DNA of 32,000 bases from Candidatus Iainarchaeum sp. GTDB lineage: Archaea; Iainarchaeota; Iainarchaeia; Iainarchaeales; JAZDEL01. The notes beneath the pieces were generated by a model. It was not told the DNA's origin and did no database searches. It worked only from the letters and a program-made list of their open reading frames with translations. Made by a program: the position numbers and the translations under genes. The stretch is from contig JAZDEL010000006.1 in NCBI GenBank assembly GCA_043808785.1, positions 1-32,000 on the forward strand, given 5' to 3'. Shown here one piece after another: positions 1 to 25,431 of the stretch; position 1 is the stretch's first letter; every line of letters starts with the position of its first letter.

Positions 1-160
1 CAAGCCGAAGGGCAAAGCCTGCACTCCTGCGTTTCCCCAGCCTGTATTTTATAACGAACCTGCGGATAGCTTCCTTATCGATTTTGCCCAAGATTCACCA
101 CCTATCAAAGATAGGCGGCAAAATGTCTTGGACCTATACACCGAAAGGCAAAACGAAACC

Positions 161-167
161 GTTAAAT
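161..167 (+). promoter_or_regulatory. TATA-box-like element upstream of cassette 1
   Basis: TTAAATA lies about 25 nt upstream of ATG 192. Its shape and spacing match other TTTAAA(T)A-type boxes in this window (2568, 11055, 11790, 24220, 31428). Confidence 0.4.
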
Positions 168-191
168 ACAACAAAAGCCTAATGAATTATC

Positions 192-416
192 ATGAAATGC
201 TCTTTAAACGACCCGAAATGCCTACTCATAATAGGCGCAGTCATTGTTCTGGTTGTGCTGGCGTTCGTTTTTCTCGGCCAGCAGGGGGGGCAGTCAGGCG
301 GGCAGGGCTCGGAAACGGGCAATGCCGATGACCCGTTTGCAGTGGGCGGCGGGACTGTGCCTGCGGAGGGCGAAGGAACGCCCGACTTCTGCGAGGGCGG
401 AAGCGAGGCCTGCTGA
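192..416 (+). CDS. Small single-pass membrane protein with acidic Gly/Gln-rich tail (cassette 1; paralog of 2611..2850)
   Basis: 74-aa ORF with a short polar N-terminus, a hydrophobic helix (LLIIGAVIVLVVLAFVFL) and a G/Q/E/D-rich tail. The tail aligns with the 2611..2850 product through the shared motifs GQG, TG[ND]A, GGG, EG, P.F and EGG.E. It stops 21 nt before the next gene. Confidence 0.6.
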   Translation: MKCSLNDPKCLLIIGAVIVLVVLAFVFLGQQGGQSGGQGSETGNADDPFAVGGGTVPAEGEGTPDFCEGGSEAC

Positions 417-437
417 GAAACAAAAAGGAGAGGTGTG

Positions 438-2441
438 ATGATGGACAAAAGACTGGTTTTGGCTTTCGCTGCCCTGGTGCTTGTGCCGACGGTGCTGGCG
501 GCGGAGCAGTGCGCATGGTTTAAGGGAAATTTGGTCGGCACAACATATGACTTGCTGACGAATTCAGGGCTTGCAAACGCTCCGCACAGCATAGATTCAT
601 ACACTAACCACGCAAATTATGCGCTGTTTTTCTCGAATGAGAGGGGCATAGTTTACGGGTACAATAAAACAACAAAGCAGTGGGAAAGCGGAAAGATTTC
701 GGATTATTACCCTGCAAGAAAGATTGACGCAATAATATGGCATACTTCGGATGTAACTACTGTTATTTCGGGGATGTTCTACTGGTACAGGCTCGGCCCT
801 GCGTGGGAAGGCAAGACAATTACAAAGGCGGGGAAGGAATGGAAGGGACCTATCGAGATTGAGGCCACTGCAATGAACTTCTGGAAGCCGAGGGTGCACA
901 GGCCGGAATTTGCGCTCACATACCCGGCTGCGCCCGAGGTGGCGACCTCGTTCTTCATGGGCCACGGCGAGCAGCTCTACATAGCCGAGAACGGCAGAGT
1001 GAACGGCGAGCCCGGCATACACCAGTGGTGGACTGGAGGGGGCAATGCGAAGTACTGGTTCTACTCGTTCAAGAAATTCTCCGAACTGAGCCTTGACCTG
1101 AAGAACATGACGCAGTTTGACGCGGTAGGCATGTACAACGGCAGGGGCTGGCTAATATTCGGGCAGGGCAACTGTGTGCCGCTTGTCAGGGACCCAAACC
1201 AAGACACGGGAAAACTGAACGATGTCATCCAGGATGTTATTGGGGTTCCGCAGAAAGATATAGTCGAGTGCACGGAAGGGCAGGCAAAGGAGTATTCTTG
1301 CCCTGATGGCACGAAGGTTCCGTGGTGCACATGCATGGACAAGAAGTGGAACTGCATACTCTCGCCCGAAAACGCGTGCCCGAAGATAGATGTGCCTGCA
1401 TGCGAGGTGCAGTTCACTGATACAGGGTTCCACGGCACTAACAAAACAGTGACTGTAAAGGTGCAGGGCGGGGCCGCTGCAATGAGCAAGGCAATCTCGG
1501 GATATTACAACTTCAACGACCCCGAGACATGCACAATATCGGGCAACACGGTGGCGTGCCCGTGCACGCAGACCACGAACGACATACGCTACGTATCCGT
1601 GACCCTCAAAACAGAGGCTGCTGGCGGCGTACTGTATGCAGTGGATGCCGCGGGAAACAAGGTGTGCAAAGCGGAGAGCGACCCGAAATACGGAGTTGCA
1701 ACATACCACTTCCTTGATGAGGACGGCCTCAAGCGCTGCAACCCGGAACAGGTTATGGCGGACCGCATCACAGTTAACAAGGTGAATGCGCGCTTCCATA
1801 AGCTGGTTGCCAACTATGTGCTGCAGGGTCTGGAGCTCAAAAATATCGGCACGGCAACTGCAACTGTCAGGGACATAAGCGTCCTCTATCCCGAGATGCT
1901 GGTAAAGCCGATTGATGTGAGCATGCAGTGCAGCGATTCCACATCAGCGGACTACTGCAGTTTCAGGCAGCCTGCCGTAACAGCAACGCCAGTGCCGATG
2001 GTGGAGCGCTATGCGCTGACCGCCAAGGTCATGGCTGAACCCGAAAAGGTCTACGAGATTCCCGTGGGCAAGGTAAGGCCTTTGGAAGTCGCGTGGGACC
2101 CGAGCGCGCTGATAGCTGGCAGGCCCCATGACATCTCAGTAGTAATCGCCTTCCTTGACGGCTCTTCGCTGACAGTGCCGATACCCGATGTCGTTGCAGA
2201 GGGCTGCACTGACAGCGACGGTGGCGATAAATACGGTGAAAAGGGTTCGGCAACGGGGAAAAACCCGAACAGGCCTTCGGAGACCATTTCAGCGGAGGAC
2301 TACTGCGACACCTCGGGGAATAAACCGACGACCACGTTAAGGGAGTACTACTGCGACGGCGAGTATCTGAAGGATCATCTGGCGAACTGCGATAATACCA
2401 GCGGTACGAACAGGTGCTCCGACGGCGCGTGCGTAAAATAA
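438..2441 (+). CDS. Large secreted Cys-rich surface protein 1 (propeller-like N-domain, Ig/CARDB-like middle, shared 6-Cys C-terminal module); function unknown
   Basis: The ORF opens at GTG 435; ATG 438 or 441 is preferred because GGAG lies at 427-430. The predicted signal peptide is MMDKRLVLAFAALVLVPTVLA|AEQC, and the mature chain has 22 Cys. Spaced [IF]D[AS] motifs followed by aromatic-rich strands (SIDSY, KIDAI, FDAVG) occur in the first ~230 aa. A CARDB-like stretch (LELKNIGTATATVRDISV) follows. The C-terminal module CTDSDGGDKY...EYYC...CSDGAC is shared with 2865..4775. There is no C-terminal TM anchor. Confidence 0.85.
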   Translation: MMDKRLVLAFAALVLVPTVLAAEQCAWFKGNLVGTTYDLLTNSGLANAPHSIDSYTNHANYALFFSNERGIVYGYNKTTKQWESGKISDYYPARKIDAIIWHTSDVTTVISGMFYWYRLGPAWEGKTITKAGKEWKGPIEIEATAMNFWKPRVHRPEFALTYPAAPEVATSFFMGHGEQLYIAENGRVNGEPGIHQWWTGGGNAKYWFYSFKKFSELSLDLKNMTQFDAVGMYNGRGWLIFGQGNCVPLVRDPNQDTGKLNDVIQDVIGVPQKDIVECTEGQAKEYSCPDGTKVPWCTCMDKKWNCILSPENACPKIDVPACEVQFTDTGFHGTNKTVTVKVQGGAAAMSKAISGYYNFNDPETCTISGNTVACPCTQTTNDIRYVSVTLKTEAAGGVLYAVDAAGNKVCKAESDPKYGVATYHFLDEDGLKRCNPEQVMADRITVNKVNARFHKLVANYVLQGLELKNIGTATATVRDISVLYPEMLVKPIDVSMQCSDSTSADYCSFRQPAVTATPVPMVERYALTAKVMAEPEKVYEIPVGKVRPLEVAWDPSALIAGRPHDISVVIAFLDGSSLTVPIPDVVAEGCTDSDGGDKYGEKGSATGKNPNRPSETISAEDYCDTSGNKPTTTLREYYCDGEYLKDHLANCDNTSGTNRCSDGACVK

Positions 2442-2452
2442 TGTGAACCCAA

Positions 2453-2492
2453 GGGGCGCGGAAAGCGCCCCGTTCTTATTTTTTTATTTTTT
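2453..2492 (+). terminator. Hairpin plus T-tract terminator after cassette 1
   Basis: GGGGCGC-ggaaa-GCGCCCC forms a perfect 7-bp stem at 2453-2471. It is followed by CTTATTTTTTTATTTTTT at 2475-2492, an 18-mer identical to 4810-4827. Confidence 0.7.
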
Positions 2493-2567
2493 AAGCCCAA
2501 GCGGAAGCGTTGTTTGCGGGTTTGTTTGGTTTTCCATAATTTCTGCAAAACCCGCGGCAAAGCAAGG

Positions 2568-2575
2568 TTTAAATA
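2568..2575 (+). promoter_or_regulatory. TATA-box-like element upstream of cassette 2
   Basis: TTTAAATA lies 36 nt upstream of ATG 2611, and GGAGG lies at 2598-2602. Confidence 0.45.
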
Positions 2576-2610
2576 GCACCAAACCCATACTATAACAGGA
2601 GGTATCTTTA

Positions 2611-2850
2611 ATGAAGGGAACCAAGGCTAAAGACAAAAACCAGATGTACCTGCTCCTTCTCGGAGTGGTTATAGTTGCCGTGATTGCAGTTGTGCTCTTC
2701 AGCCAGCCTGCGCCTGATGCACAGGCGGGGGACGGGCAGGGGAACGCTGCAACAGGCGATGCTACTGATGTTTTGGCGAGCGGCGGGGGACAGCCGCAGG
2801 AAGGAACAGAACCGGCATTCGATTCCGAAGGCGGGGAGATAGCGGAGTAA
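2611..2850 (+). CDS. Small single-pass membrane protein with acidic Gly-rich tail (cassette 2; paralog of 192..416)
   Basis: 79-aa ORF with GGAGG 8 nt upstream. It has a Lys-rich N-terminus (MKGTKAKDKNQ), the helix YLLLLGVVIVAVIAVVLF and a tail homologous to the 192..416 product. It stops 14 nt before the next gene. Confidence 0.65.
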   Translation: MKGTKAKDKNQMYLLLLGVVIVAVIAVVLFSQPAPDAQAGDGQGNAATGDATDVLASGGGQPQEGTEPAFDSEGGEIAE

Positions 2851-2864
2851 AGGAGGCTTGAAAC

Positions 2865-4775
2865 ATGAAGGCAAGGACACTATTAATTCTGGCAATGCTG
2901 CTTTCTTTGCCCGCGTTCGCGCTGGCTAAGGAGCAGTGCTTATGGGCAGGGGGGGAGAATTACGGAGGCACTGCAAGCGTGCTTAAGGCTGCAGGCATGC
3001 CCCGGAACACTATTATTCCGAGCAAGATTGATGCCGCAATGGAGGACCTGCGCAATGTTTACCTGTACTCCAGGGAAACAATGATGTTTTATGTGCTGAG
3101 CAAGGACACATTGAAGTGGACTGCAGGAAAGGTCGATAACCCGCAGTTCGCGCCGATAGGCGGCTACTGGATTAACGTGGTTCCGACAAGGAATATTGAT
3201 TCGATGAATTATGACATACTGTCGGATGCATATACAATAACATCCGGCGGCACGTACTACATATGGAAAGACAACAAATGGAGCCATGTGTACCGCTTGG
3301 GCGATTCCACAAGGGGATGGAGGCCGAACACCATGCCTCTGCCCGAGCTGCCGTCAAGGGCGGATGTGCTGGCGAACTTCGGCGACGCGCAGGGGAAACT
3401 CCAGACACTCATAGGGGTAAACAGCGGCAAGGGCCTGAAGGAATGGTACACTTCGGGCGCAAGGGTCAATCCCTGGTGGAATTTCAAGCTTGTGCCTTAC
3501 GACAGGCTTGGGCTGAGGGCACCGAAGCTCACTACAAGCGTGCAGGGGCTTGTGAGTGTTGATGCCATAACAGTGAACCTCGTGGTTCCAAAGAAGGAAT
3601 CCGTCAGGGTCAAGCTCGGCAAGACGATTATCTTCGGCACTGTCAGCGGCTCATGCAAAGTTGACAAGGTCACGAAGGTGCCGTGGGATATACAGATAAA
3701 GAACCCGGAACAGCTGCCTGTTCCCGTCCCTCAGCCCGGGCCCGAGCAGATAACCGAGTGCGTTGTCGGGGTTGTTGACAGGGGCACTGCGAGCACAGAA
3801 GGCATAGGCGCAAAGAAAGTAAAGGTGTTCGATGTCAAGGTCAACGGCGCTGCGGGAAAGGCAGTGAAAGCGGAGGCGCAATATGGCACTGCAGCGGGCA
3901 ACAAAAGTGACTGCGCGGTGTCCGCGAACGCGAACGGCGGCTCGACAATTAAGTGCGACTGCAAGAGCGGCGCAAATTCAATCCGCGGAGTCGGCATAAC
4001 AATCAAGCAGGGCGACTATACGAAGTGCTCAATAAACAACACAAAGGTAAACAGGGGTGCATACCAGACTGTTGCGGTCGACCCGTGCCCGGAGACAGTC
4101 CCGCAGGAAGTTCCCGGGCAGGTTCCGCAGCCCGGGCCCGAGCAGATAACCGAGTGCGTTGTGGGAGTTGTTGACAAGGGTACGGAAACTTCGTTTGCCC
4201 CAATAGGCGGAGCCAGGGCATTCAAGGTGTTCGGCGTGCAGGTCAACGGCGCTGCTGGAAAGGCCGTGAAAGCGGACGCATACTACGGCGGCTCCTCGGA
4301 CAACTGGCTTGGCTGCTCGCTGCGGGAAAACAACACCACCCTATGGTGCCCCTGCAAATACACGGGCAACACAAAAAGCCTCTATGCGGTCGGCATAAGA
4401 ATCAAGCAGGACGACTACACTAAGTGCACAATAAACACAGCCAGCGTTAAGAGGGGAAACTACCAGACAGTTACTGTGAACCCCTGCCTGGAGAACGTGC
4501 CTGTGCCGGAGAGTAGCGGCGGCGCTGAACAGTTGGTTGAGTGCAAAGAAACCGACGGCGGCAAGGATAAGTATGTGAAGGGAACCGCAACCGGGAAGGA
4601 GAAATACGGCGTTGCGGCGTCGGCCACCAAGGAGGATTACTGCATCGGCCCTGGCACTCAATTCACAGCCAACAAGCCTACGGTCGTGGAATATTACTGC
4701 GAAGGCGGCTATCTGGAAAACGCGCCAATGACGTGCAACGACAAAGCATGCAGAGACGGCGCGTGCACAAGGTAA
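2865..4775 (+). CDS. Large secreted Cys-rich surface protein 2 (paralog of 438..2441, with an internal tandem domain duplication)
   Basis: AGGAGG lies at 2851-2856. The predicted signal peptide is MKARTLLILAMLLSLPAFALA|KEQC, and the mature chain has 20 Cys. Hemopexin-like strings are present (SKIDAAMEDLRNVYLYSRETMMFYVL, RNIDSMNY...YYIWKDNKW). There are two ~123-aa repeats, followed by the C-terminal module CKETDGGKDKY...EYYC...CRDGAC. Confidence 0.85.
   Translation: MKARTLLILAMLLSLPAFALAKEQCLWAGGENYGGTASVLKAAGMPRNTIIPSKIDAAMEDLRNVYLYSRETMMFYVLSKDTLKWTAGKVDNPQFAPIGGYWINVVPTRNIDSMNYDILSDAYTITSGGTYYIWKDNKWSHVYRLGDSTRGWRPNTMPLPELPSRADVLANFGDAQGKLQTLIGVNSGKGLKEWYTSGARVNPWWNFKLVPYDRLGLRAPKLTTSVQGLVSVDAITVNLVVPKKESVRVKLGKTIIFGTVSGSCKVDKVTKVPWDIQIKNPEQLPVPVPQPGPEQITECVVGVVDRGTASTEGIGAKKVKVFDVKVNGAAGKAVKAEAQYGTAAGNKSDCAVSANANGGSTIKCDCKSGANSIRGVGITIKQGDYTKCSINNTKVNRGAYQTVAVDPCPETVPQEVPGQVPQPGPEQITECVVGVVDKGTETSFAPIGGARAFKVFGVQVNGAAGKAVKADAYYGGSSDNWLGCSLRENNTTLWCPCKYTGNTKSLYAVGIRIKQDDYTKCTINTASVKRGNYQTVTVNPCLENVPVPESSGGAEQLVECKETDGGKDKYVKGTATGKEKYGVAASATKEDYCIGPGTQFTANKPTVVEYYCEGGYLENAPMTCNDKACRDGACTR
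3726..4493 (+). repeat. Intragenic tandem duplication (2 x ~123-124 codons, period 396 nt)
   Basis: Repeat A spans 3726-4094 and repeat B spans 4122-4493. A 35-nt stretch is identical at 3732-3766 and 4127-4161. The block gtcaacggcgctgc.ggaaaggc.gtgaaagcgga is near-identical at ~3840 and ~4241. The rest is diverged. Confidence 0.9.
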
Positions 4776-4786
4776 TGCGAACTCAC

Positions 4787-4828
4787 GGGGGCTTTGAAAA
4801 AGGCCCCGCCCTTATTTTTTTATTTTTT
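4787..4828 (+). terminator. Hairpin plus T-tract terminator after cassette 2
   Basis: An 8-bp stem with a GAAA loop lies at 4787-4806. It is followed by CTTATTTTTTTATTTTTTT at 4810-4828. Confidence 0.7.
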
Positions 4829-4868: not shown

Positions 4869-4897
4869 CCTTCGTTTTCTATACTTTTGTATAAACA

Positions 4898-4974
4898 GGC
4901 TGCTTCGGGCAGTCTGCTGATTGGTTTTGCTCCCCGTGCTTCGGGCAAGGGTTGAGCAACCAATCCCGAAAGGG
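4898..4974 (+). promoter_or_regulatory. Structured 5' leader or candidate small RNA upstream of rps19e
   Basis: Three consecutive hairpins are present. The first (4898-4914) has a 6-bp stem. The second (4919-4965) has 18 bp in four helical segments, including GATTGGTT/AACCAATC. The third (4965-4974) is CCC-GAAA-GGG. The 11-mer TGCTTCGGGCA forms the apex of both larger hairpins (4901-4911 and 4937-4947). Confidence 0.45.
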
Positions 4975-4991
4975 AAAAAGGATGTGAAAAA

Positions 4992-5603
4992 TTGGGTGTT
5001 TTCGACGTTCCGGCAGGAGCACTTATAGGCGAGATAGCCAAGGAACTGAAGGGCAGGATTGCGCAGCCCAAGTGGGCGGGGCTTGTAAAGACGGGCGTGA
5101 ACAGGGAAAGGGCGCCGCAGAATCCCGACTGGTATTTTGTGCGCACCGCATCCGTGCTTTACAGGGTTTACACAGACGGGCCGGTGGGCACGGGAAGTTT
5201 GAGGACCTATTATGGCGGGAGAAAAAGGCGCGGAGTGAGGACGGAGCACTTCAGGGAAGCGGGCGGAAAAATTATACGCACCTGCCTGCAGAACCTTGAG
5301 AAGGAGGGGCTGATTAAAAAGGTCGAGAAGGGCAAGGGCAGGATAATAAGCGCGAAGGGCGCGGGATATTTGAACAGGAAGGCAAATGAAGTTGCGGAGC
5401 TTATCAGGAGCGGGGCATATGCTGCAAAGGCAGGGCACGGAAGAAAGGGGAAGAGCGCGGAGGAAGAGAGCGTTACTGCCACGCTAAGGGGGCAGGAAGA
5501 GGCGAAGAAGAAGAAGATTGAGGGGGAGAAGAAGGCTGCGGAGAAAAGGCACCAAGCAGGCGCGGAGAAGGCGACGGAGGGTGCTGAAGCGAAACCCGCA
5601 TAG
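4992..5603 (+). CDS. rps19e: 30S ribosomal protein S19e (eS19) with a Lys/Glu/Ala-rich C-terminal extension
   Basis: The product reads GVFDVPAGALIGEIAKELK...PDWYFVRTASVLYRVY...GGRKRRG, which is typical S19e. The only in-frame start near the conserved N-terminus is TTG at 4992. The last ~55 aa are low complexity. Confidence 0.9.
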   Translation: MGVFDVPAGALIGEIAKELKGRIAQPKWAGLVKTGVNRERAPQNPDWYFVRTASVLYRVYTDGPVGTGSLRTYYGGRKRRGVRTEHFREAGGKIIRTCLQNLEKEGLIKKVEKGKGRIISAKGAGYLNRKANEVAELIRSGAYAAKAGHGRKGKSAEEESVTATLRGQEEAKKKKIEGEKKAAEKRHQAGAEKATEGAEAKPA

Positions 5604-6297: not shown

Positions 6298-6762
6298 ATG
6301 AAAGGGAATGAAGCGGAATATGTGATAAGCCTTGTGCCCGTTTTCAGCCAGCCGAGAACAAAGAGGGCAAAAAAAGCCGTGAAAGAGGTAAAGAGGTTCG
6401 TGAAGAAGCACGCGCGCAGCGATAACGCGGTTATTACGGAGGAGCTGAACCGCGAAATATGGAAGAATTCAAAAAACATACAGCGCAGGCTCGAGGTTAT
6501 GCTTGTGAAGAAGGACGGGAAGGTTTATGTTTACCTGAGCAAGGGGAAACAGCTTGCGGAGGACAGGAAACGCGAGGCCGATGACAAGAAAAAGAAAGAG
6601 GCCGAGAAGAAGGAAAAGGAAAAGAAGGCCGCCGAGGGAAAGGACGGGAAAAAAGAGGCAAAGGATATCGAGGCCGAGGAAGCGGAAAAGAAAAAGCGCG
6701 AGGAGAAGAGGGAGAAGGAGATTGCCGCGGAGAAAGGGGACATCAAGAGGGGAATGAAGTAG
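6298..6762 (+). CDS. rpl31e: 50S ribosomal protein L31e (eL31) with a long Lys/Glu-rich C-terminal extension
   Basis: The L31e core reads RTKRAKKAVKEVKRFVKKHARSDNAVITEELNREIWKNSKNIQRRLEV. It is followed by a ~70-aa KE-rich tail. Confidence 0.88.
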   Translation: MKGNEAEYVISLVPVFSQPRTKRAKKAVKEVKRFVKKHARSDNAVITEELNREIWKNSKNIQRRLEVMLVKKDGKVYVYLSKGKQLAEDRKREADDKKKKEAEKKEKEKKAAEGKDGKKEAKDIEAEEAEKKKREEKREKEIAAEKGDIKRGMK

Positions 6763-11082: not shown

Positions 11083-11367
11083 ATGATAACTATGCACGCA
11101 AGGGCGAATGTTCTGCACTACCCGAGGCTGGATACTGTGATTATGATAGAGGATGCGATAAAAAAGGCGGATAATTATCCGGGCAGGACGGCACTCTGGA
11201 AGAAACTGCCGAAAAAGGTAATGTACCAGACATATAAGGTTGCGATAGACTACCTCATCAGGTCGAGGAAGGTAATGCTCACAAAAGACGACAAGCTTGT
11301 CTGGGTTTTTGCTGATACGCCGAAGGCAAGGAAACTCATTGCAGAGAGCGTGCCTGCATATGCATGA
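11083..11367 (+). CDS. Small winged-helix-like protein, putative antitoxin/regulator of the downstream RelE-like gene
   Basis: The 94-aa product shows a helix-turn-helix-wing pattern (RTALWKKLPKKVMYQTYKVAIDYLIRSRKVMLTKDDKLVWVF). It overlaps the next ORF by 8 nt (ATGCATGA). Confidence 0.5.
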   Translation: MITMHARANVLHYPRLDTVIMIEDAIKKADNYPGRTALWKKLPKKVMYQTYKVAIDYLIRSRKVMLTKDDKLVWVFADTPKARKLIAESVPAYA

Positions 11368-11704
11368 GGTACGTTACTCCGCGGAGTTCAACAAGGAGTA
11401 TGTAAGGCTCAGGTTGCGCGCGGATAAGGGAGGCGGCGAGGCCAAATACATCATTGAGTGCATCAGCAGGGCAACCGCAAAGATTGCGAAAAACATCGAG
11501 GCCGGCAAGAAAATTCCAAGGAAACAATGGCCTGGCGAGTATGCCAGAAAGTACGGAATAACTAACCTCTGGAAGTTCAACCTTGATTCGAGCTGGCGGC
11601 TTATATACACAATAGAGGGCGACATGGCAAGCCTATATGCAATCTACCTTGAGCACATGAACCACAAGGAATACTGCAGAAAGTTCGGCTACAGGAAGGG
11701 CTGA
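11360..11704 (+). CDS. RelE/ParE-superfamily-like toxin (putative)
   Basis: The 114-aa product contains LWKFNLDSSWRLIYTIEGD..LYAIYLEHMNHKEY, which resembles the RelE/YoeB 'k.rlgdyRliY.i....i.il.i..r..aY' core. The start is set at ATG 11360, which overlaps the upstream stop. Confidence 0.5.
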   Translation: MHEVRYSAEFNKEYVRLRLRADKGGGEAKYIIECISRATAKIAKNIEAGKKIPRKQWPGEYARKYGITNLWKFNLDSSWRLIYTIEGDMASLYAIYLEHMNHKEYCRKFGYRKG

Positions 11705-14047: not shown

Positions 14048-14098
14048 GGCTGCGGGCGTTTGTTTTTTGGATGTCGGGAATTTGCGCGGGGCGGAAAA

Positions 14099-14914
14099 AT
14101 GATTGACCTGATGCTCCTGAGGATTGCGGCGGTGCTTATCGCGGGCGCCGCTGCGGCATACGCCGATTTCAAAACAGGGCTTATTCCCGATAAAATAACC
14201 TACGGCGCTGTTGCCGTGGGTGCAGTGATTTCGCTCGCGGCATTTGACATGCAGGCATTCCTTATTGCAGGGGTTGTTTTCGCAATAGGGTATGCGCTGT
14301 ATTACGCGGGAAAAATCGGCGGAGGGGATGTGAAGCTTTTCGCAGGATTGGCGCTGATTATGCCTGTTTATGAAGGCAGGGTTTTTGTACTCAGCGTGCT
14401 GTTTGTTGCCGCGCTTGCAGCGGCGCTCTGGTTCGGGGCTTATTATGCGGGGAGGTATGCGCTGAGGGGGGTTGTGCTGAAGGGCAATGAGGAGGGCATA
14501 AAGAGGGCGCTGATTTTGGGGATTCCGCTTTCCGTGTTTTTGGCATTTTCACTGAATGCGGGGCTTATTTCATACGCGTATGTTGCTGCAATAGCCCTGC
14601 CCATGGCTGCGGCGCTGCTGTTCATTGCGTTCGAGCACGGGATAAGGAAGGAGTTCTTCCTTGCGCGCGTGAAGATTGCGGAACTCGAGGAGGACGAGCT
14701 GATTGCGCTCGATTTTATGGATGAGAAGCAAAAGGAAAAACTCGGGGTGCAGTTCAAGGGAATAATTGACGAGAAACTGAAAAAGGAACTGCTAAGCATG
14801 GGCATGAAGGAGGTGCCTGTGTACAGGAACCTGCCGAGGTTCGGGCCTTTCATACTTGCAGGGATTGTTTTTGTGGTTTTCTTGCCTGCCGCGGTGCCTC
14901 TGCCTGCGATGTGA
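14099..14914 (+). CDS. A24-family type IV prepilin/preflagellin peptidase
   Basis: The polytopic membrane protein carries the two catalytic Asp motifs, ADFKTGLIPD and GGGDVKL. The start is MIDLMLLRI at 14099. Confidence 0.85.
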   Translation: MIDLMLLRIAAVLIAGAAAAYADFKTGLIPDKITYGAVAVGAVISLAAFDMQAFLIAGVVFAIGYALYYAGKIGGGDVKLFAGLALIMPVYEGRVFVLSVLFVAALAAALWFGAYYAGRYALRGVVLKGNEEGIKRALILGIPLSVFLAFSLNAGLISYAYVAAIALPMAAALLFIAFEHGIRKEFFLARVKIAELEEDELIALDFMDEKQKEKLGVQFKGIIDEKLKKELLSMGMKEVPVYRNLPRFGPFILAGIVFVVFLPAAVPLPAM

Positions 14915-22268: not shown

Positions 22269-22868
22269 ATGAGCAAAACAATAACCCTTTCGGTTCCAGA
22301 CGAGGTTTACGAGGAGATGCGCTCGCATCCAGAAATCAATTATTCGGAACTTGCAAGGGAACGCATAGGCGAATACCTCGCAATGTTCAAGGGCAGGGAG
22401 GAGCTTGCTCCGCACAATTTCCTCCTGATGAAAGATTTGGTGTTCACGCCGGCAAAAATAGAGGAAATTCACCGCATGCTGGATAAGAAAAGCGCCCGCA
22501 CAGGCAATCTCCTCTGGGTGGATGCCGTGTTCGACCTTGACATGCTTGACAGCCTTGCGAAGTTCATGCATTCTTTCCCGCGCGCGCACCCTTTCGAGGA
22601 CGCGAACAAGCGCACCATGTTTGTATGCGTGGATGCGTTCCTGCGCCTTAACCGCATGAGGCTTGCGGTAAGGGCGGACGCGAAAAAAACAACCGAGGAC
22701 GAGAAGTTCTTCTGGCAGAATGCGAACATGCGGAAGGAAGTTGCGGAAATAAGGGCGTTCATCGAGAAGAGGATTGTGCCTGCAAGGAAGCCGAAGAGCG
22801 TCGAGGATGCTGTAAGGCAGTCTATCGAGGAAAATAAGGCGCTTATCCGCAGGCTGGCTGCGGAATAG
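22269..22868 (+). CDS. Fused ribbon-helix-helix (antitoxin-like) and Doc-family (Fic-fold) toxin domain protein
   Basis: The N-terminus TITLSVPDEVYEEMRSHPEINYSELARERIGEYL is RHH/CopG-like. Residues 107-115 (HPFEDANKR, nt 22587-22613) match the Doc signature HxFx[DN][AG]NKR. TTTTTATTTAA lies 21 nt upstream of the start. Confidence 0.7.
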   Translation: MSKTITLSVPDEVYEEMRSHPEINYSELARERIGEYLAMFKGREELAPHNFLLMKDLVFTPAKIEEIHRMLDKKSARTGNLLWVDAVFDLDMLDSLAKFMHSFPRAHPFEDANKRTMFVCVDAFLRLNRMRLAVRADAKKTTEDEKFFWQNANMRKEVAEIRAFIEKRIVPARKPKSVEDAVRQSIEENKALIRRLAAE

Positions 22869-24247: not shown

Positions 24248-24889
24248 TTGGAAAATCAACAGGTGATTTGCTTGCTTGGCGAAGCCGAACTTAGGATATT
24301 GTCGGCCTTCTTCCCGGAAGGGGCTGAGAGGACAACCAAGGAGATAGAAGGGCGCTCAGGCTATTCCCACGAGCGCGTACACTCTATGCTTAACACCTTA
24401 GAGGGAAAGGAAATCCTGTCCAGGAGGAGCGTGGGGAAGGCGCTTGTTTATTCCATCAGGAGATACGGCGACCCTGCATATCTTGCATTCACTTATTATT
24501 CCATAAACAGGAAGGGTGCTTTCATTAAAAAACATCCACAGGCATGGAGGGCTGTGGAAGAATTTATGGGCAAAGCAGAGCCCGAACTGGCTGTCCTGTT
24601 CGGCAGCTATTCAAAGGGCGGGGCAAATGCGGGGAGCGACATTGACATGCTCTGCATTTGCGGGAACCGGAAGGCGGAAAAAATCGCCCTGTCGCTGAGG
24701 CATAAATACAACCTGAAAATAAGCCCCGTTATTGTCAGCAAAGAAGAATTCAGGAACATAAGGGCGGACAACCCCGAACTATGGGGGGAAATTGTAAGGT
24801 TCGGGGTTGTGCTGAAAGGGCAGGAACTGTTTTACGATTTGGTTTATCCGTTTACTCTGCAGTACCTGCGGCAGCCAGCGGGGGATTAG
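24248..24889 (+). CDS. Winged-helix plus minimal nucleotidyltransferase (MNT) domain protein (antitoxin-like partner of HEPN)
   Basis: The N-terminal wHTH reads LRILSAFFPEGAERTTKEIEGRSGYSHERVHSMLNTLEGKEIL. The MNT signature is GSYSKGGANAGSDIDML. The exact start (TTG 24248) is uncertain. Confidence 0.8.
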   Translation: MENQQVICLLGEAELRILSAFFPEGAERTTKEIEGRSGYSHERVHSMLNTLEGKEILSRRSVGKALVYSIRRYGDPAYLAFTYYSINRKGAFIKKHPQAWRAVEEFMGKAEPELAVLFGSYSKGGANAGSDIDMLCICGNRKAEKIALSLRHKYNLKISPVIVSKEEFRNIRADNPELWGEIVRFGVVLKGQELFYDLVYPFTLQYLRQPAGD

Positions 24890-24997
24890 ATGGAAAAAGA
24901 CGTTTCCAAGTTCATCAATGAGGGCTTGCTGGCAAAAACGCCGTTCATACAAAGGCTGGTGCCGAGATTCATTGGAAGGCGAAGGACAACCTCGTAA
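24890..24997 (+). pseudogene. Detached N-terminal segment of the HEPN gene (35 codons, out of frame with 25000..25431)
   Basis: The ATG directly abuts the MNT stop (TAGATG). MEKDVSKFINEGLLAKTPF... resembles the usual N-terminus of MNT-associated HEPN proteins. The downstream frame is open from 24922 and reads ...AEIHWKAKDNLVTMSILFG. A single -1 shift near 24959-24963 would join the two pieces. Confidence 0.5.
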
Positions 24998-24999
24998 CA

Positions 25000-25431
25000 A
25001 TGAGCATACTTTTTGGCATCCACGGCAACAAGGATGCGAGAAGCGCATTGGATGTGCCCGAAGATTACGACTCAAGCGAATGGGTTGCTGTCTGCGCTTA
25101 TTATGCGATGTACATGGCAGCCTCTGCCGCGCTTGCGAGGGTGAATTACAGGAGCAAAAACCATTCCGCGACTGTCCTTGCGCTTGAAACGTTTTTTGTG
25201 GATAAGCAGTTGCTGGAGAAAAAGTATGTTGAGATTATTGAGAAAGCCCAGCTTGAGAAAGACTATGTTGACGGCCTGAACCTTGCAAGAAACAAAAGGG
25301 AAATCGCACAATACAGCGTCACGAAGGAAACAACGAGGAAAATCGCCGTGGAACTGAAGGATGATGCATACAAATTTGTGGAACGGGTGGAAAGGCTTAT
25401 CCACGAATTGGATGAGGCTGCGGAGGCGTGA
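25000..25431 (+). CDS. HEPN-domain protein (toxin-like partner of MNT); major open segment
   Basis: The 143-aa all-helical product contains WVAVCAYYAMYMAASAALA...NHSATVLALE...LARNKREIAQY. It sits immediately downstream of an MNT gene. I could not see a canonical Rx4-6H motif. Confidence 0.7.
   Translation: MSILFGIHGNKDARSALDVPEDYDSSEWVAVCAYYAMYMAASAALARVNYRSKNHSATVLALETFFVDKQLLEKKYVEIIEKAQLEKDYVDGLNLARNKREIAQYSVTKETTRKIAVELKDDAYKFVERVERLIHELDEAAEA

What the first reader, a model, noticed from the sequence alone, without database searches (positions are those of the whole stretch)
161..4828. Tandemly duplicated two-gene cassette: small acid-tailed membrane protein plus large secreted Cys-rich protein
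Two consecutive units share one architecture.
- Each starts with a TATA-like box.
- A 74- or 79-aa ORF follows. It has a short polar or Lys-rich N-terminus, one hydrophobic helix and a ~45-aa Gly/Gln/Asp/Glu tail. The tails share the motifs GQG, TG[ND]A, GGG, EG, P.F and EGG.E.
- A 14-21 nt gap carrying GGAG(G) follows.
- Next comes a 636- to 667-aa signal-peptide protein whose mature end begins [AK]EQC.W. These proteins have even Cys counts (22 and 20), propeller-like ID[AS] repeats and the same 6-Cys C-terminal module.
- Each unit ends with a GC hairpin and an identical CTTATTTTTTTATTTTTT tract.

The large proteins have no anchor of their own. The small ones look like N-in/C-out signal-anchor proteins. 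My inference is that the small protein is a dedicated membrane partner, anchor or maturation factor for the secreted protein. That would make this a two-component surface or adhesin-like module that has duplicated and diverged. I do not recognise either component as a named family.
Basis: partly seen in the sequence, partly recalled or inferred. Interest (0 to 1): 0.75.

Follow-up and report, generated by a model that had tools for sequence, protein, structure and literature searches.

The report
Small membrane tether plus secreted propeller protein
A tiny uncultivated archaeon carries two tandem copies of a conserved gene pair, a small membrane protein with a floppy acidic tail followed by a large secreted cysteine-rich protein that starts with a hemopexin-like propeller; the pair is most likely a previously undescribed way of holding a surface protein on the cell, but no interaction has been shown.

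Summary
Window 155-4828 holds two promoter-to-terminator units in a Candidatus Diapherotrites (Iainarchaeum-like, DPANN) genome. Each unit encodes a 74- or 79-aa protein and a 666- or 636-aa signal-peptide protein. The small protein has an N-terminal membrane helix and an acidic Gly-rich tail.

All four genes are annotated only as hypothetical. None reaches significance in Pfam or NCBIfam, and the large proteins have no PDB sequence match.

The pair recurs as a unit in three deeply diverged versions in about three related genomes:
- 74 aa + ~630-700 aa
- 76-79 aa + ~620-636 aa
- 195 aa + 394 aa

The only domain shared by all three large partners is the N-terminal ~225 aa. AlphaFold2 (pLDDT 82) and Foldseek place it in the four-bladed hemopexin fold. 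The only tail features shared by the small partners are two short motifs, D-x-[FL]-[AS]-x-GGG and P-[DA]-F. Proteins that carry only the widespread C-terminal 6-Cys module have no such small upstream gene.

Best reading, at about 45%: the small protein is an N-in/C-out tether whose tail motifs dock the propeller of the co-transcribed secreted protein.

The interaction, expression and topology are untested. The family is narrow, so interest is moderate.

The parts
155..171 (+). Unit 1 archaeal promoter block GAAACCGTTAAATACAA. The TATA box is at 162-168, about 23 nt before the ATG, which implies a leaderless or very short leader.
   Evidence: The block is identical in the three orthologous loci, while the upstream DNA is not alignable.
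192..416 (+). small1 (74 aa; NCBI V1676_04480). It has a short basic N-terminus, a 19-residue membrane helix, and an acidic Gly-rich tail with the motifs DPFAVGGG and PDFCEGG..C.
   Evidence: dN/dS is 0.27-0.53.
427..435 (+). Ribosome-binding site GGAGAGGTG for large1.
   Evidence: Read from the sequence. GAGGTGTGA is conserved in L001, L002 and L007.
441..2441 (+). large1 (666 aa; V1676_04485; P0003). It has a Sec signal peptide (aa 1-20) and a hemopexin-like propeller (aa ~22-246, nt 504-1178). A Cys-rich linker and beta-rich middle region follow. The protein ends in a 6-Cys module (aa 589-666, nt 2205-2438).
2453..2492 (+). Unit 1 terminator: a GC hairpin (GGGGCGC/GCGCCCC) followed by the oligo-T tract CTTATTTTTTTATTTTTT.
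2559..2578 (+). Unit 2 promoter block AAAGCAAGGTTTAAATAGCA, with the TATA box at 2568-2575. A Shine-Dalgarno AGGAGGT follows at 2597-2603.
   Evidence: Conserved in L001 within otherwise diverged intergenic DNA.
2611..2850 (+). small2 (79 aa; V1676_04490). It has a Lys-rich N-terminus, a membrane helix, and an acidic tail with the motifs DVLASGGG and PAFDSEGG.
   Evidence: dN/dS is 0.21, and it differs from L001 by an in-frame 9-nt indel.
2865..4775 (+). large2 (636 aa; V1676_04495; P0001). It has a signal peptide (aa 1-21) and a hemopexin-like propeller (aa ~22-265, nt 2928-3659). Two tandem ~133-aa Cys-containing repeats follow (nt 3726-4121 and 4122-4520). The protein ends in a 6-Cys module (nt 4542-4772).
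4788..4828 (+). Unit 2 terminator: an 8-bp GC hairpin followed by the identical oligo-T tract.
   Evidence: (repeat families D4 and D5).

Best explanation
Each unit is a bicistronic operon for a two-part cell-surface module.

- **Small protein.** It inserts into the membrane as an uncleaved signal-anchor, N-terminus inside. It displays a ~45-aa acidic, Gly-rich, probably disordered tail outside the cell.
- **Large protein.** It is exported by Sec and its signal peptide is cut before [AK]EQC. It then folds with 10-11 disulfides.
- **Tethering.** The large protein has no anchor of its own. Its N-terminal hemopexin-like four-bladed propeller binds the two conserved short motifs in the tail, D-x-[FL]-[AS]-x-GGG and P-[DA]-F.
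- **Outward domains.** The beta-rich repeats and the 6-Cys module then project outwards for adhesion or contact with the surface layer.

Shown here: gene organisation, paralogy, conserved pairing, purifying selection and the propeller fold. Inferred: topology, tail disorder, the binding step and the outward function.
For: **The pair is inherited and duplicated as a unit**
- The same small-large-small-large order is found in L001.
- L002/L003/L004 carry one pair.
- A third, deeply diverged pair (195 aa + 394 aa) is in L006/L007.
- The three small-protein types are homologous (hhalign 87%, E=4e-6).

**The shared features point to the propeller and the tail motifs**
- The N-terminal domain is the only part common to all three large partners. 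The L001 large1 orthologue lacks the C-module. P0153 carries a different C-terminal domain.
- That domain models at pLDDT 81.7 and pTM 0.80.
- Its best structural matches are hemopexin 1qhu, the vitronectin hemopexin domain 7u68, and the plant hemopexin-fold proteins 3oyo, 3v6n and 6ix1. Probabilities are 1.00 and TM-scores up to 0.56.
- The two tail motifs are the only tail features conserved across the small-protein types.
- They stay untouched in a divergent allele that changes 13 other residues.

**Specificity**
- The two proteins checked that carry only the C-terminal module have divergent upstream neighbours and no room for a small ORF.

**Topology and expression signals**
- The small proteins have basic N-termini, a 19-20-residue Pro-free hydrophobic stretch and tails without K or R.
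- The large proteins have no second hydrophobic segment.
- Promoters, ribosome sites and terminators are conserved.
- dN/dS of the small ORFs is 0.2-0.5.
Against:
- The family was seen in only about three species-level genomes, so co-occurrence is phylogenetically shallow.
- Charge complementarity is not general. Propeller pI ranges from 4.7 to 9.5.
- The upstream DNA of two further propeller proteins could not be read. These are the C25-peptidase fusions P0059 and P0060; P0060 comes from the window's genome and P0059 probably does too.
- Signal-peptidase cleavage of the small proteins cannot be excluded; small2 has an AQA|G site after the helix.
- The match to hemopexin is at fold level only. 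The Pfam Hemopexin model scores E=1.1 in one of nine sequences.
Confidence: 0.45

Rival explanations
1. The small protein is not a permanent anchor. It acts as a transient, dedicated export or maturation factor, or it is itself cleaved after the helix. In the second case it is released as a ~40-aa acidic peptide that acts on the propeller as a trans-acting chaperone, ligand or plug. The large protein would then end up free, or be held by something else.
For: - Pairing and motif conservation are the same as for the tether model.
- Small residues that fit the -3/-1 rule follow the helix. Examples are AQA|G in small2 and TQA|A in its L001 orthologue.
- The large proteins need many disulfides.
- The acidic propeller of P0153 argues against a simple electrostatic tether.
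Against: - The hydrophobic stretch is 19-20 residues without a helix breaker. That is longer than the 16-residue Pro-containing core of the large proteins' own signal peptides.
- The 195-aa paralogue carries three copies of the DPF/DHF-type motif on a long spacer. That looks like a multivalent tether rather than a chaperone.
Confidence: 0.17
2. The small proteins are degenerate type IV pilin-like (class III signal peptide) subunits. Their helix enters a pilus-like fibre made by the neighbouring pilin-like gene, and their tails recruit the large protein to the fibre as an adhesin.
For: - In L001 and L002 the cassette lies directly downstream of a class III signal-peptide gene.
- A prepilin peptidase gene lies in the same conserved block (window 14060-14914).
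- The small2 helix YLLLLGVVIVAVIAVVLF resembles the pilin helix YLLLIGGAVLVAVVIIVLI.
- The L002 pilin-like protein carries DALANGGGG after its helix (hhalign 62%, E=8e-5).
- The L001 pilin-like protein ends in a DPF motif.
- The 195-aa paralogue starts MLEKG|AVSF, a plausible prepilin site.
Against: - Pfam Class_IIIsignal does not match small1 or small2 at E<=1.
- Neither has [KR][GA] directly before the helix. The residues there are KC and NQ.
- There is no globular pilin domain.
- The third pair, in L007, is not next to a pilin gene.
- Similarity between hydrophobic helices is weak evidence.
Confidence: 0.12
3. The small ORFs are functionally unrelated neighbours, or mere upstream ORFs or leaders that tune translation of the large genes. 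The peptide product would have no role.
For: - Synonymous divergence of small1 (pS 0.42) is lower than in all 11 neighbouring genes (0.58-0.88) between the window and L002. This hints at a nucleotide-level constraint.
- The small ORFs are short and of low complexity.
Against: - Protein-level conservation is evident, with dN/dS of 0.2-0.5.
- The indel between small2 orthologues is in frame.
- The helix-plus-motif architecture is kept across three paralogue lineages that share almost no DNA identity.
- small2 has its own ribosome-binding site.
Confidence: 0.06

Closest known systems
SlaA/SlaB two-component S-layer of Sulfolobales
   Same: - A large secreted surface protein without a membrane anchor is encoded next to, and co-transcribed with, a separate membrane-anchored partner that holds it on the cell.
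   Different: - There is no sequence relationship.
- From established knowledge, SlaB is a ~45-kDa folded stalk with a C-terminal membrane helix and a coiled coil.
- Here the partner is 74-195 aa, with an N-terminal helix and a disordered acidic tail.
- The gene order is reversed, with the anchor first.
- No lattice formation is known.
- The related genome has a separate Methanococcales-type S-layer gene (S_layer_C, L007 5523-8426).
Hemopexin-fold proteins (hemopexin, vitronectin and MMP hemopexin domains, plant PA2/CP4 albumins, Photorhabdus photopexins)
   Same: - Both have a four-bladed propeller with recurrent [IV]D[AS]...[FY]x.G..Y[WY] blade motifs.
- A Cys lies at each end of the domain, as in the blade I-IV disulfide.
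- These proteins are the best Foldseek matches.
- A baculovirus MMP is among the viral matches.
- The fold typically serves protein or ligand binding.
   Different: - Sequence similarity is below the family threshold (Pfam E=1.1; hhalign 5%).
- TM-scores are only 0.45-0.56.
- Blade 3 carries long insertions, modelled at low confidence around residues 120-160.
- The host is a DPANN archaeon, and the domain sits at the N-terminus of Cys-rich surface proteins or C25 peptidases.
- To my knowledge this fold has not been described in archaeal surface proteins.
Geobacter PilA-N/PilA-C split pilin
   Same: - A small helix-only protein is encoded directly upstream of a larger exported partner with which it associates (from established knowledge).
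   Different: - PilA-N is a genuine type IV pilin with a prepilin cleavage site.
- small1 and small2 fail the class III signal tests.
- The partner here is a 640-aa multidomain protein with its own Sec signal peptide.
SafA-type small membrane proteins acting through a short conserved motif (PMC9282373)
   Same: - A small single-pass membrane protein is genetically linked to a surface-biogenesis protein and acts through a short linear motif.
   Different: - SafA binds a membrane enzyme (sortase) in Actinobacteria and is not a tether for a secreted protein.
- There is no sequence relationship.

Membership tests
Hemopexin fold / Pfam PF00045 (N-terminal domain of the large proteins) | Four-bladed beta-propeller architecture | tested here: met
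   - The AF2 model from a 9-sequence alignment has pLDDT 81.7 and pTM 0.80.
- The top Foldseek PDB hits are hemopexin-fold proteins at probability 1.00 and TM 0.45-0.56.
Hemopexin fold / Pfam PF00045 (N-terminal domain of the large proteins) | Sequence match to the Hemopexin repeat profile above threshold | tested here: not met
   - There was no hit at E<=1 for the full proteins.
- One of nine N-domains hit at E=1.1.
Hemopexin fold / Pfam PF00045 (N-terminal domain of the large proteins) | Disulfide joining the first and last blade | tested here: inconclusive
   - Cys24 and Cys245 lie at the two ends of the domain.
- Both are present in six relatives. Both are replaced (by V and Y) in P0059 and P0060.
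SlaA/SlaB-type two-component S-layer | Sequence or domain homology to SlaA/SlaB | tested here: not met
   No Pfam or NCBIfam match reaches significance, and there is no PDB sequence match.
SlaA/SlaB-type two-component S-layer | Adjacent co-oriented genes for an anchorless exported protein and a membrane-anchored partner | tested here: met
   Searches show the arrangement. It is conserved in L001, L002 and L007.
SlaA/SlaB-type two-component S-layer | Assembly into a 2-D lattice on the partner | not testable with these tools
   This needs microscopy or symmetric multimer modelling.
Class III signal peptide / type IV pilin-like (small proteins) | Profile match and a [KR][GA] cleavage motif directly before the hydrophobic helix | tested here: not met
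   - PF04021 does not match at E<=1.
- small1 has KC and small2 has NQ before the helix.
- Only the 195-aa paralogue has KG|A.
Class III signal peptide / type IV pilin-like (small proteins) | Prepilin peptidase and a pilin gene in the neighbourhood | tested here: met
   - Peptidase_A24 lies at window 14060-14914.
- A class III signal protein lies directly upstream in L001 and L002.
Methanococcales-type S-layer protein (Pfam S_layer_C) | Profile match in the large proteins | tested here: not met
   - The large proteins have no hit.
- A separate 967-aa S_layer_C protein exists in the related genome.
- Only P0153 shares one ~105-aa domain with it (E=2e-17).
Covalent or own-anchor surface proteins (C-terminal membrane helix, PGF-CTERM, lipobox) | A second hydrophobic segment or a sorting signal in the large proteins | tested here: not met
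   - The only hydrophobic segment is the signal peptide.
- The C-termini are the Cys module.
- The Cys lies at +3 or +4 after the cleavage site, so there is no lipobox.
Diversity-generating retroelement target (for the hypervariable small ORF allele) | Substitutions confined to template adenines | tested here: not met
   The 29 differences involve all bases and all codon positions, and about half are synonymous (dS 0.31, dN 0.10).

The most novel reading that the evidence does not exclude
The acid-tailed small proteins and hemopexin-like propeller proteins form a previously unknown 'peptide-in-propeller' anchoring system of DPANN archaea. Short DPF/GGG motifs on disordered membrane tethers, and perhaps on the neighbouring pilin-like protein, recruit anchorless surface proteins. 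One of these proteins, P0153, shares a domain with the S-layer protein. The system could therefore be the missing link that ties a Methanococcales-type S-layer, which has no membrane helix, to the membrane. Allele swapping confined to the small ORF would reflect selection on this exposed tether.
Probability: 0.15. Interest if true: 0.8.

Novelty: new variant of a known kind. Interest (0 to 1): 0.55.

Why it matters
- **Open question.** How DPANN archaea build and hold their surface proteins is largely unknown. No DPANN S-layer or anchoring system has been determined experimentally (bioRxiv 10.1101/2023.10.27.564410). These surfaces mediate contact with hosts.
- **What a confirmed system would add.** It would be a new anchoring principle: a minimal membrane tether that captures a secreted protein through short linear motifs docking into a hemopexin-like propeller.
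- **Structural interest.** It would be a rare prokaryotic, and possibly the first archaeal, use of the hemopexin fold.
- **Testability.** The motif-to-domain hypothesis can be tested with small peptides.
- **Limits.** The family is currently seen in only a few closely related genomes. Everything beyond gene organisation, conservation and fold is inference.

Tried and rejected
**Searches that led nowhere**
- A full-length AF2 model of large1 from 5 sequences was unusable (pLDDT 36).
- Two scans of JGI metagenome contigs and one of IMG/VR found no relatives.
- The GTDB genome scan found only the already known L002 contig.
- Exact look-ups failed for P0001 and P0003 (the window's own contig) and for P0059 and P0060. 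The region upstream of position 1 and the neighbourhoods of the two C25-peptidase propeller proteins could therefore not be read.
- The P0058 contig starts inside the gene.
- A profile search of PDB sequences gave 0 hits.
- Rfam and tRNA scans of the window were empty.

**Ideas tested and rejected**
- *DGR-type hypermutation of the small ORF.* Rejected, because the changes are not adenine-specific and half are synonymous.
- *Simple electrostatic pairing of an acidic tail with a basic propeller.* Rejected as a general rule.
- *The conserved antisense ORFs over small1 (179-604, minus strand) as the real gene.* Rejected for three reasons:
  - The substitution pattern shows purifying selection in the sense frame, with dN/dS of 0.31.
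  - The promoter and ribosome site lie on the plus strand.
  - The G-rich sense codons explain the open antisense frame.
- *A lipobox or PGF-CTERM anchor on the large proteins.* Rejected.
Full report
**Source and context**

The window comes from a metagenome-assembled genome labelled Candidatus Diapherotrites. Its nearest relative in GTDB is titled Candidatus Iainarchaeum. NCBI annotates the four genes of the finding as hypothetical proteins V1676_04480, 04485, 04490 and 04495.

Downstream lies a conserved archaeal housekeeping block:
- ribosomal proteins S19e and L31e, an ORF at the position where the L002 orthologue matches L39e, a dsDNA-binding protein and eIF6
- ribosomal protein LX (Pfam Ribosomal_L18A) and prefoldin
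- FtsY, SRP54 and a prepilin peptidase

- The small ORFs are at 192-416 (74 aa) and 2611-2850 (79 aa). The large ORFs are at 441-2441 (666 aa) and 2865-4775 (636 aa).
- The large proteins are paralogues, with E=4e-14 over the N-terminal part and E=1e-11 over the C-terminal module.
- The small proteins are weakly similar on their own (E=0.008). They align clearly once orthologues are added.
  - Cys counts of 22 and 20
  - a single hydrophobic segment per protein
  - tails free of K and R, with net charges of -8 and -10
  - TATA-like boxes and GGAG ribosome sites
  - the twice-occurring tract CTTATTTTTTTATTTTTT, each copy after a GC hairpin
- Two details need correction. The gap before large1 is 21-24 nt, depending on the start codon. 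The motif EGG.E fits only small1.

**The units are conserved transcription units**

- The block GAAACCGTTAAATACAA (155-171) is identical in three genomes whose flanking DNA no longer aligns.
- It ends about 23 nt before the small1 ATG, which suggests a leaderless mRNA.
- The unit 2 block AAAGCAAGGTTTAAATAGCA and its AGGAGGT site are conserved in L001.

**The pair is the unit of inheritance**

Relatives are very rare. Two word-indexed searches and an exhaustive HMMER scan of 1.84 billion representatives found full-length relatives in only two other assemblies.

| Locus | Source | Arrangement |
|---|---|---|
| L001 | Logan SRR22387960 | 74 aa, 632 aa, 76 aa, 617 aa in the same order |
| L002 | GCA_043820655.1 | one pair, 74 aa + 699 aa, at the same position upstream of rpS19e |
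| L007 | same genome as L002 | third pair, 195 aa + 394 aa (P0153) |
| L006 | MAG labelled Micrarchaeota | near-identical copy of the L007 pair |

- The 195-aa protein again has an N-terminal helix and a long acidic tail. It is homologous to the window's small proteins (hhalign 87%, E=4e-6).
- The three large-protein lineages are only ~26-29% identical to each other in the shared domain. The pairing is therefore old.
- As negative controls, two proteins that carry only the C-terminal Cys module have divergently transcribed upstream neighbours 50-90 nt away and no small ORF.

**The small ORFs are coding**

- dN/dS is 0.21-0.53 between orthologues and 0.31 between two alleles.
- The one indel between small2 orthologues is 9 nt.

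**What the large proteins are**

*N-terminal domain*
- A nine-sequence alignment of the first ~250 residues gave an AF2 model with pLDDT 81.7 and pTM 0.80.
- Foldseek against the PDB ranks hemopexin first (1qhu, E=7e-5).
- The next matches of this fold are the vitronectin hemopexin-like domain (7u68) and the plant proteins 3oyo, 3v6n and 6ix1. All have probability 1.00 and TM-scores up to 0.56.
- A baculovirus matrix metalloprotease is among the viral hits.
- The sequence shows the blade signature [IV]D[AS]...F[FY].G..Y[WY].
- A Cys lies at each end of the domain. Both are present in six relatives and both are lost in P0059 and P0060. This is as expected for the blade I-IV disulfide of this fold.
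- Sequence profiles do not reach significance. This is therefore a fold-level assignment, not family membership.
- The same domain heads two other proteins. P0060 comes from the window's genome and P0059 probably does too. P0059 is a C25-type cysteine peptidase.

*Middle and C-terminal regions*
- The middle of large2 is a tandem duplication of a ~133-aa Cys-containing unit, 54% identical.
- The C-terminal 6-Cys module is a widespread extracellular repeat. Nearly all of the 768 hits in the exhaustive search are to it.
- It occurs up to 10 times per protein, sometimes together with S_layer_C. Pfam has no model that matches it.
- P0153 carries a different second domain, which is 38% identical to a domain of the 967-aa S-layer protein encoded 1.2 kb downstream (E=2e-17).

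**Mechanistic inference**

- The propeller is the only domain common to the three large partners.
- The only conserved tail features of the small partners are two motifs:

| Motif | Versions seen |
|---|---|
| D-x-[FL]-[AS]-x-GGG | DPFAVGGG, DVLASGGG, DPFAKGGG, DHFSTGGG |
| P-[DA]-F near the C-terminus | PDFCEGG, PAFDSEGG, PDFGASG |

- The positive-inside rule, the long Pro-free helix and the basic-residue-free tails put the tail outside the cell.
- The most economical model is that the tail motifs dock into the propeller, tethering an otherwise anchorless protein. I rate this at 0.45.
- The broader statement that the two genes form one functional surface module is much safer, at about 0.8.
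- Charge complementarity does not explain the pairing.

**Rival explanations**

- The small protein could be a cleaved or transient maturation factor.
- It could be a pilin-like subunit. In favour:
  - The cassette lies next to a class III signal-peptide gene.
  - A prepilin peptidase gene lies nearby.
  - The L002 pilin-like protein shares a DALANGGGG motif.
  
  Against: small1 and small2 fail the class III tests.
- The small ORF could be a purely regulatory upstream ORF.

**An unexpected population-level feature**

- L003 and L002 are identical over 4613 nt apart from 30 mismatches. Twenty-nine fall inside the 225-nt small ORF.
- The changes are roughly half synonymous and not adenine-specific. 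They look like replacement by a ~13% diverged allele rather than DGR mutagenesis.
- Both motifs are untouched by these changes.
- Conversely, small ORFs diverge less at synonymous sites than their neighbours:

| Comparison | Small ORFs | Other genes |
|---|---|---|
| window vs L001 (dS) | 0.37-0.51 | 1.0-1.3 (large genes) |
| window vs L002 (pS) | 0.42 (small1) | 0.58-0.88 (11 other genes) |

- The evolutionary history of the small ORF therefore seems partly decoupled from its flanks.

**Verdict**

- This is a real, conserved and unnamed two-gene surface module.
- It functionally resembles anchor-plus-canopy pairs such as SlaB/SlaA but is built from unrelated parts.
- Its narrow distribution and the lack of any interaction or expression data keep interest moderate.

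Noticed in passing
L003 230-454 versus L002 8409-8633: Two assemblies from sister samples are 100% identical over 4.6 kb except for 29 substitutions confined to the 74-aa small ORF, plus one in the signal peptide of the large gene. The changes are half synonymous and not A-specific. This looks like allele replacement or balancing selection limited to the small gene, and both tail motifs are spared.
   Followed up: partly
window 192-416 and 2611-2850: Synonymous divergence of the small ORFs is clearly lower than that of every neighbouring gene. For small1 versus L002, pS is 0.42 against 0.58-0.88 for the others. For window versus L001, dS is 0.37-0.51 against 1.0-1.3. This suggests recombination, strong codon preference or an RNA-level constraint.
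   Followed up: partly
window 4896-4975: A conserved, strongly structured RNA leader lies between the unit 2 terminator and rpS19e. It folds at -38 kcal/mol (z=-3.2) into two hairpins. The first stem shows apparent compensatory changes in L002, and L001 and L002 carry an insertion inside the second. It has no Rfam match.
   Followed up: partly
window 2421-2492 versus 4755-4828: The last codons, stop codon and terminator of the two units are 81-87% identical at DNA level, while the genes themselves are only ~23-38% identical as proteins. This suggests gene conversion or selection on the 3' end.
   Followed up: no
window 3726-4121 and 4122-4520: There is an internal tandem duplication inside large2. 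Two ~133-aa Cys-containing units are 54% identical, and each begins VPQPGPEQITEC.
   Followed up: yes
window 2205-2438 and 4542-4772: The C-terminal 6-Cys module (C.[DE][ST]DGG...DYC...EYYC...C...C.DGAC) is an abundant extracellular repeat of uncultivated archaea. Nearly all of the 768 hits in the exhaustive search are to it, with up to 10 copies per protein. Pfam has no model that matches it.
   Followed up: partly
L007 3163-4347 and 5523-8426: The third propeller protein, P0153, shares a ~105-aa domain with the 967-aa S_layer_C-type S-layer protein encoded 1.2 kb downstream (38% identity, E=2e-17). That S-layer protein has no obvious membrane helix.
   Followed up: partly
L002 1419-8321 and L001 3-6520; window 1-54: Upstream of the cassette, the related genomes carry a class III signal (pilin-like) gene. 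On the other strand lie three or four paralogous ~356-aa secreted proteins. L002 also has there a ~1040-aa protein with acidic double-disulfide repeats and a weak match to the CPR pilus protein PamT. Window 1-54 looks like the Cys-containing 3' end of the pilin-like gene.
   Followed up: no
P0059, P0060 (not in the window): The hemopexin-like N-domain also heads two 1000-1150-aa proteins. P0060 is from the window's genome and P0059 probably is too. P0059 matches peptidase family C25 and carries a weak cell-wall-binding (CW_binding_2) match below Pfam's cut-off. Both lack the two terminal Cys residues of the propeller.
   Followed up: partly
window 11297-11704, 22269-22868, 24248-25431: Candidate toxin or defence genes are scattered among the housekeeping genes. 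They are a ParE-like toxin, a Fic/DOC protein and an adjacent nucleotidyltransferase/HEPN pair.
   Followed up: no
window 4992-5603 and 6298-6762: Ribosomal proteins S19e (203 aa) and L31e (154 aa) carry long Lys/Glu-rich C-terminal extensions beyond their Pfam domains.
   Followed up: no
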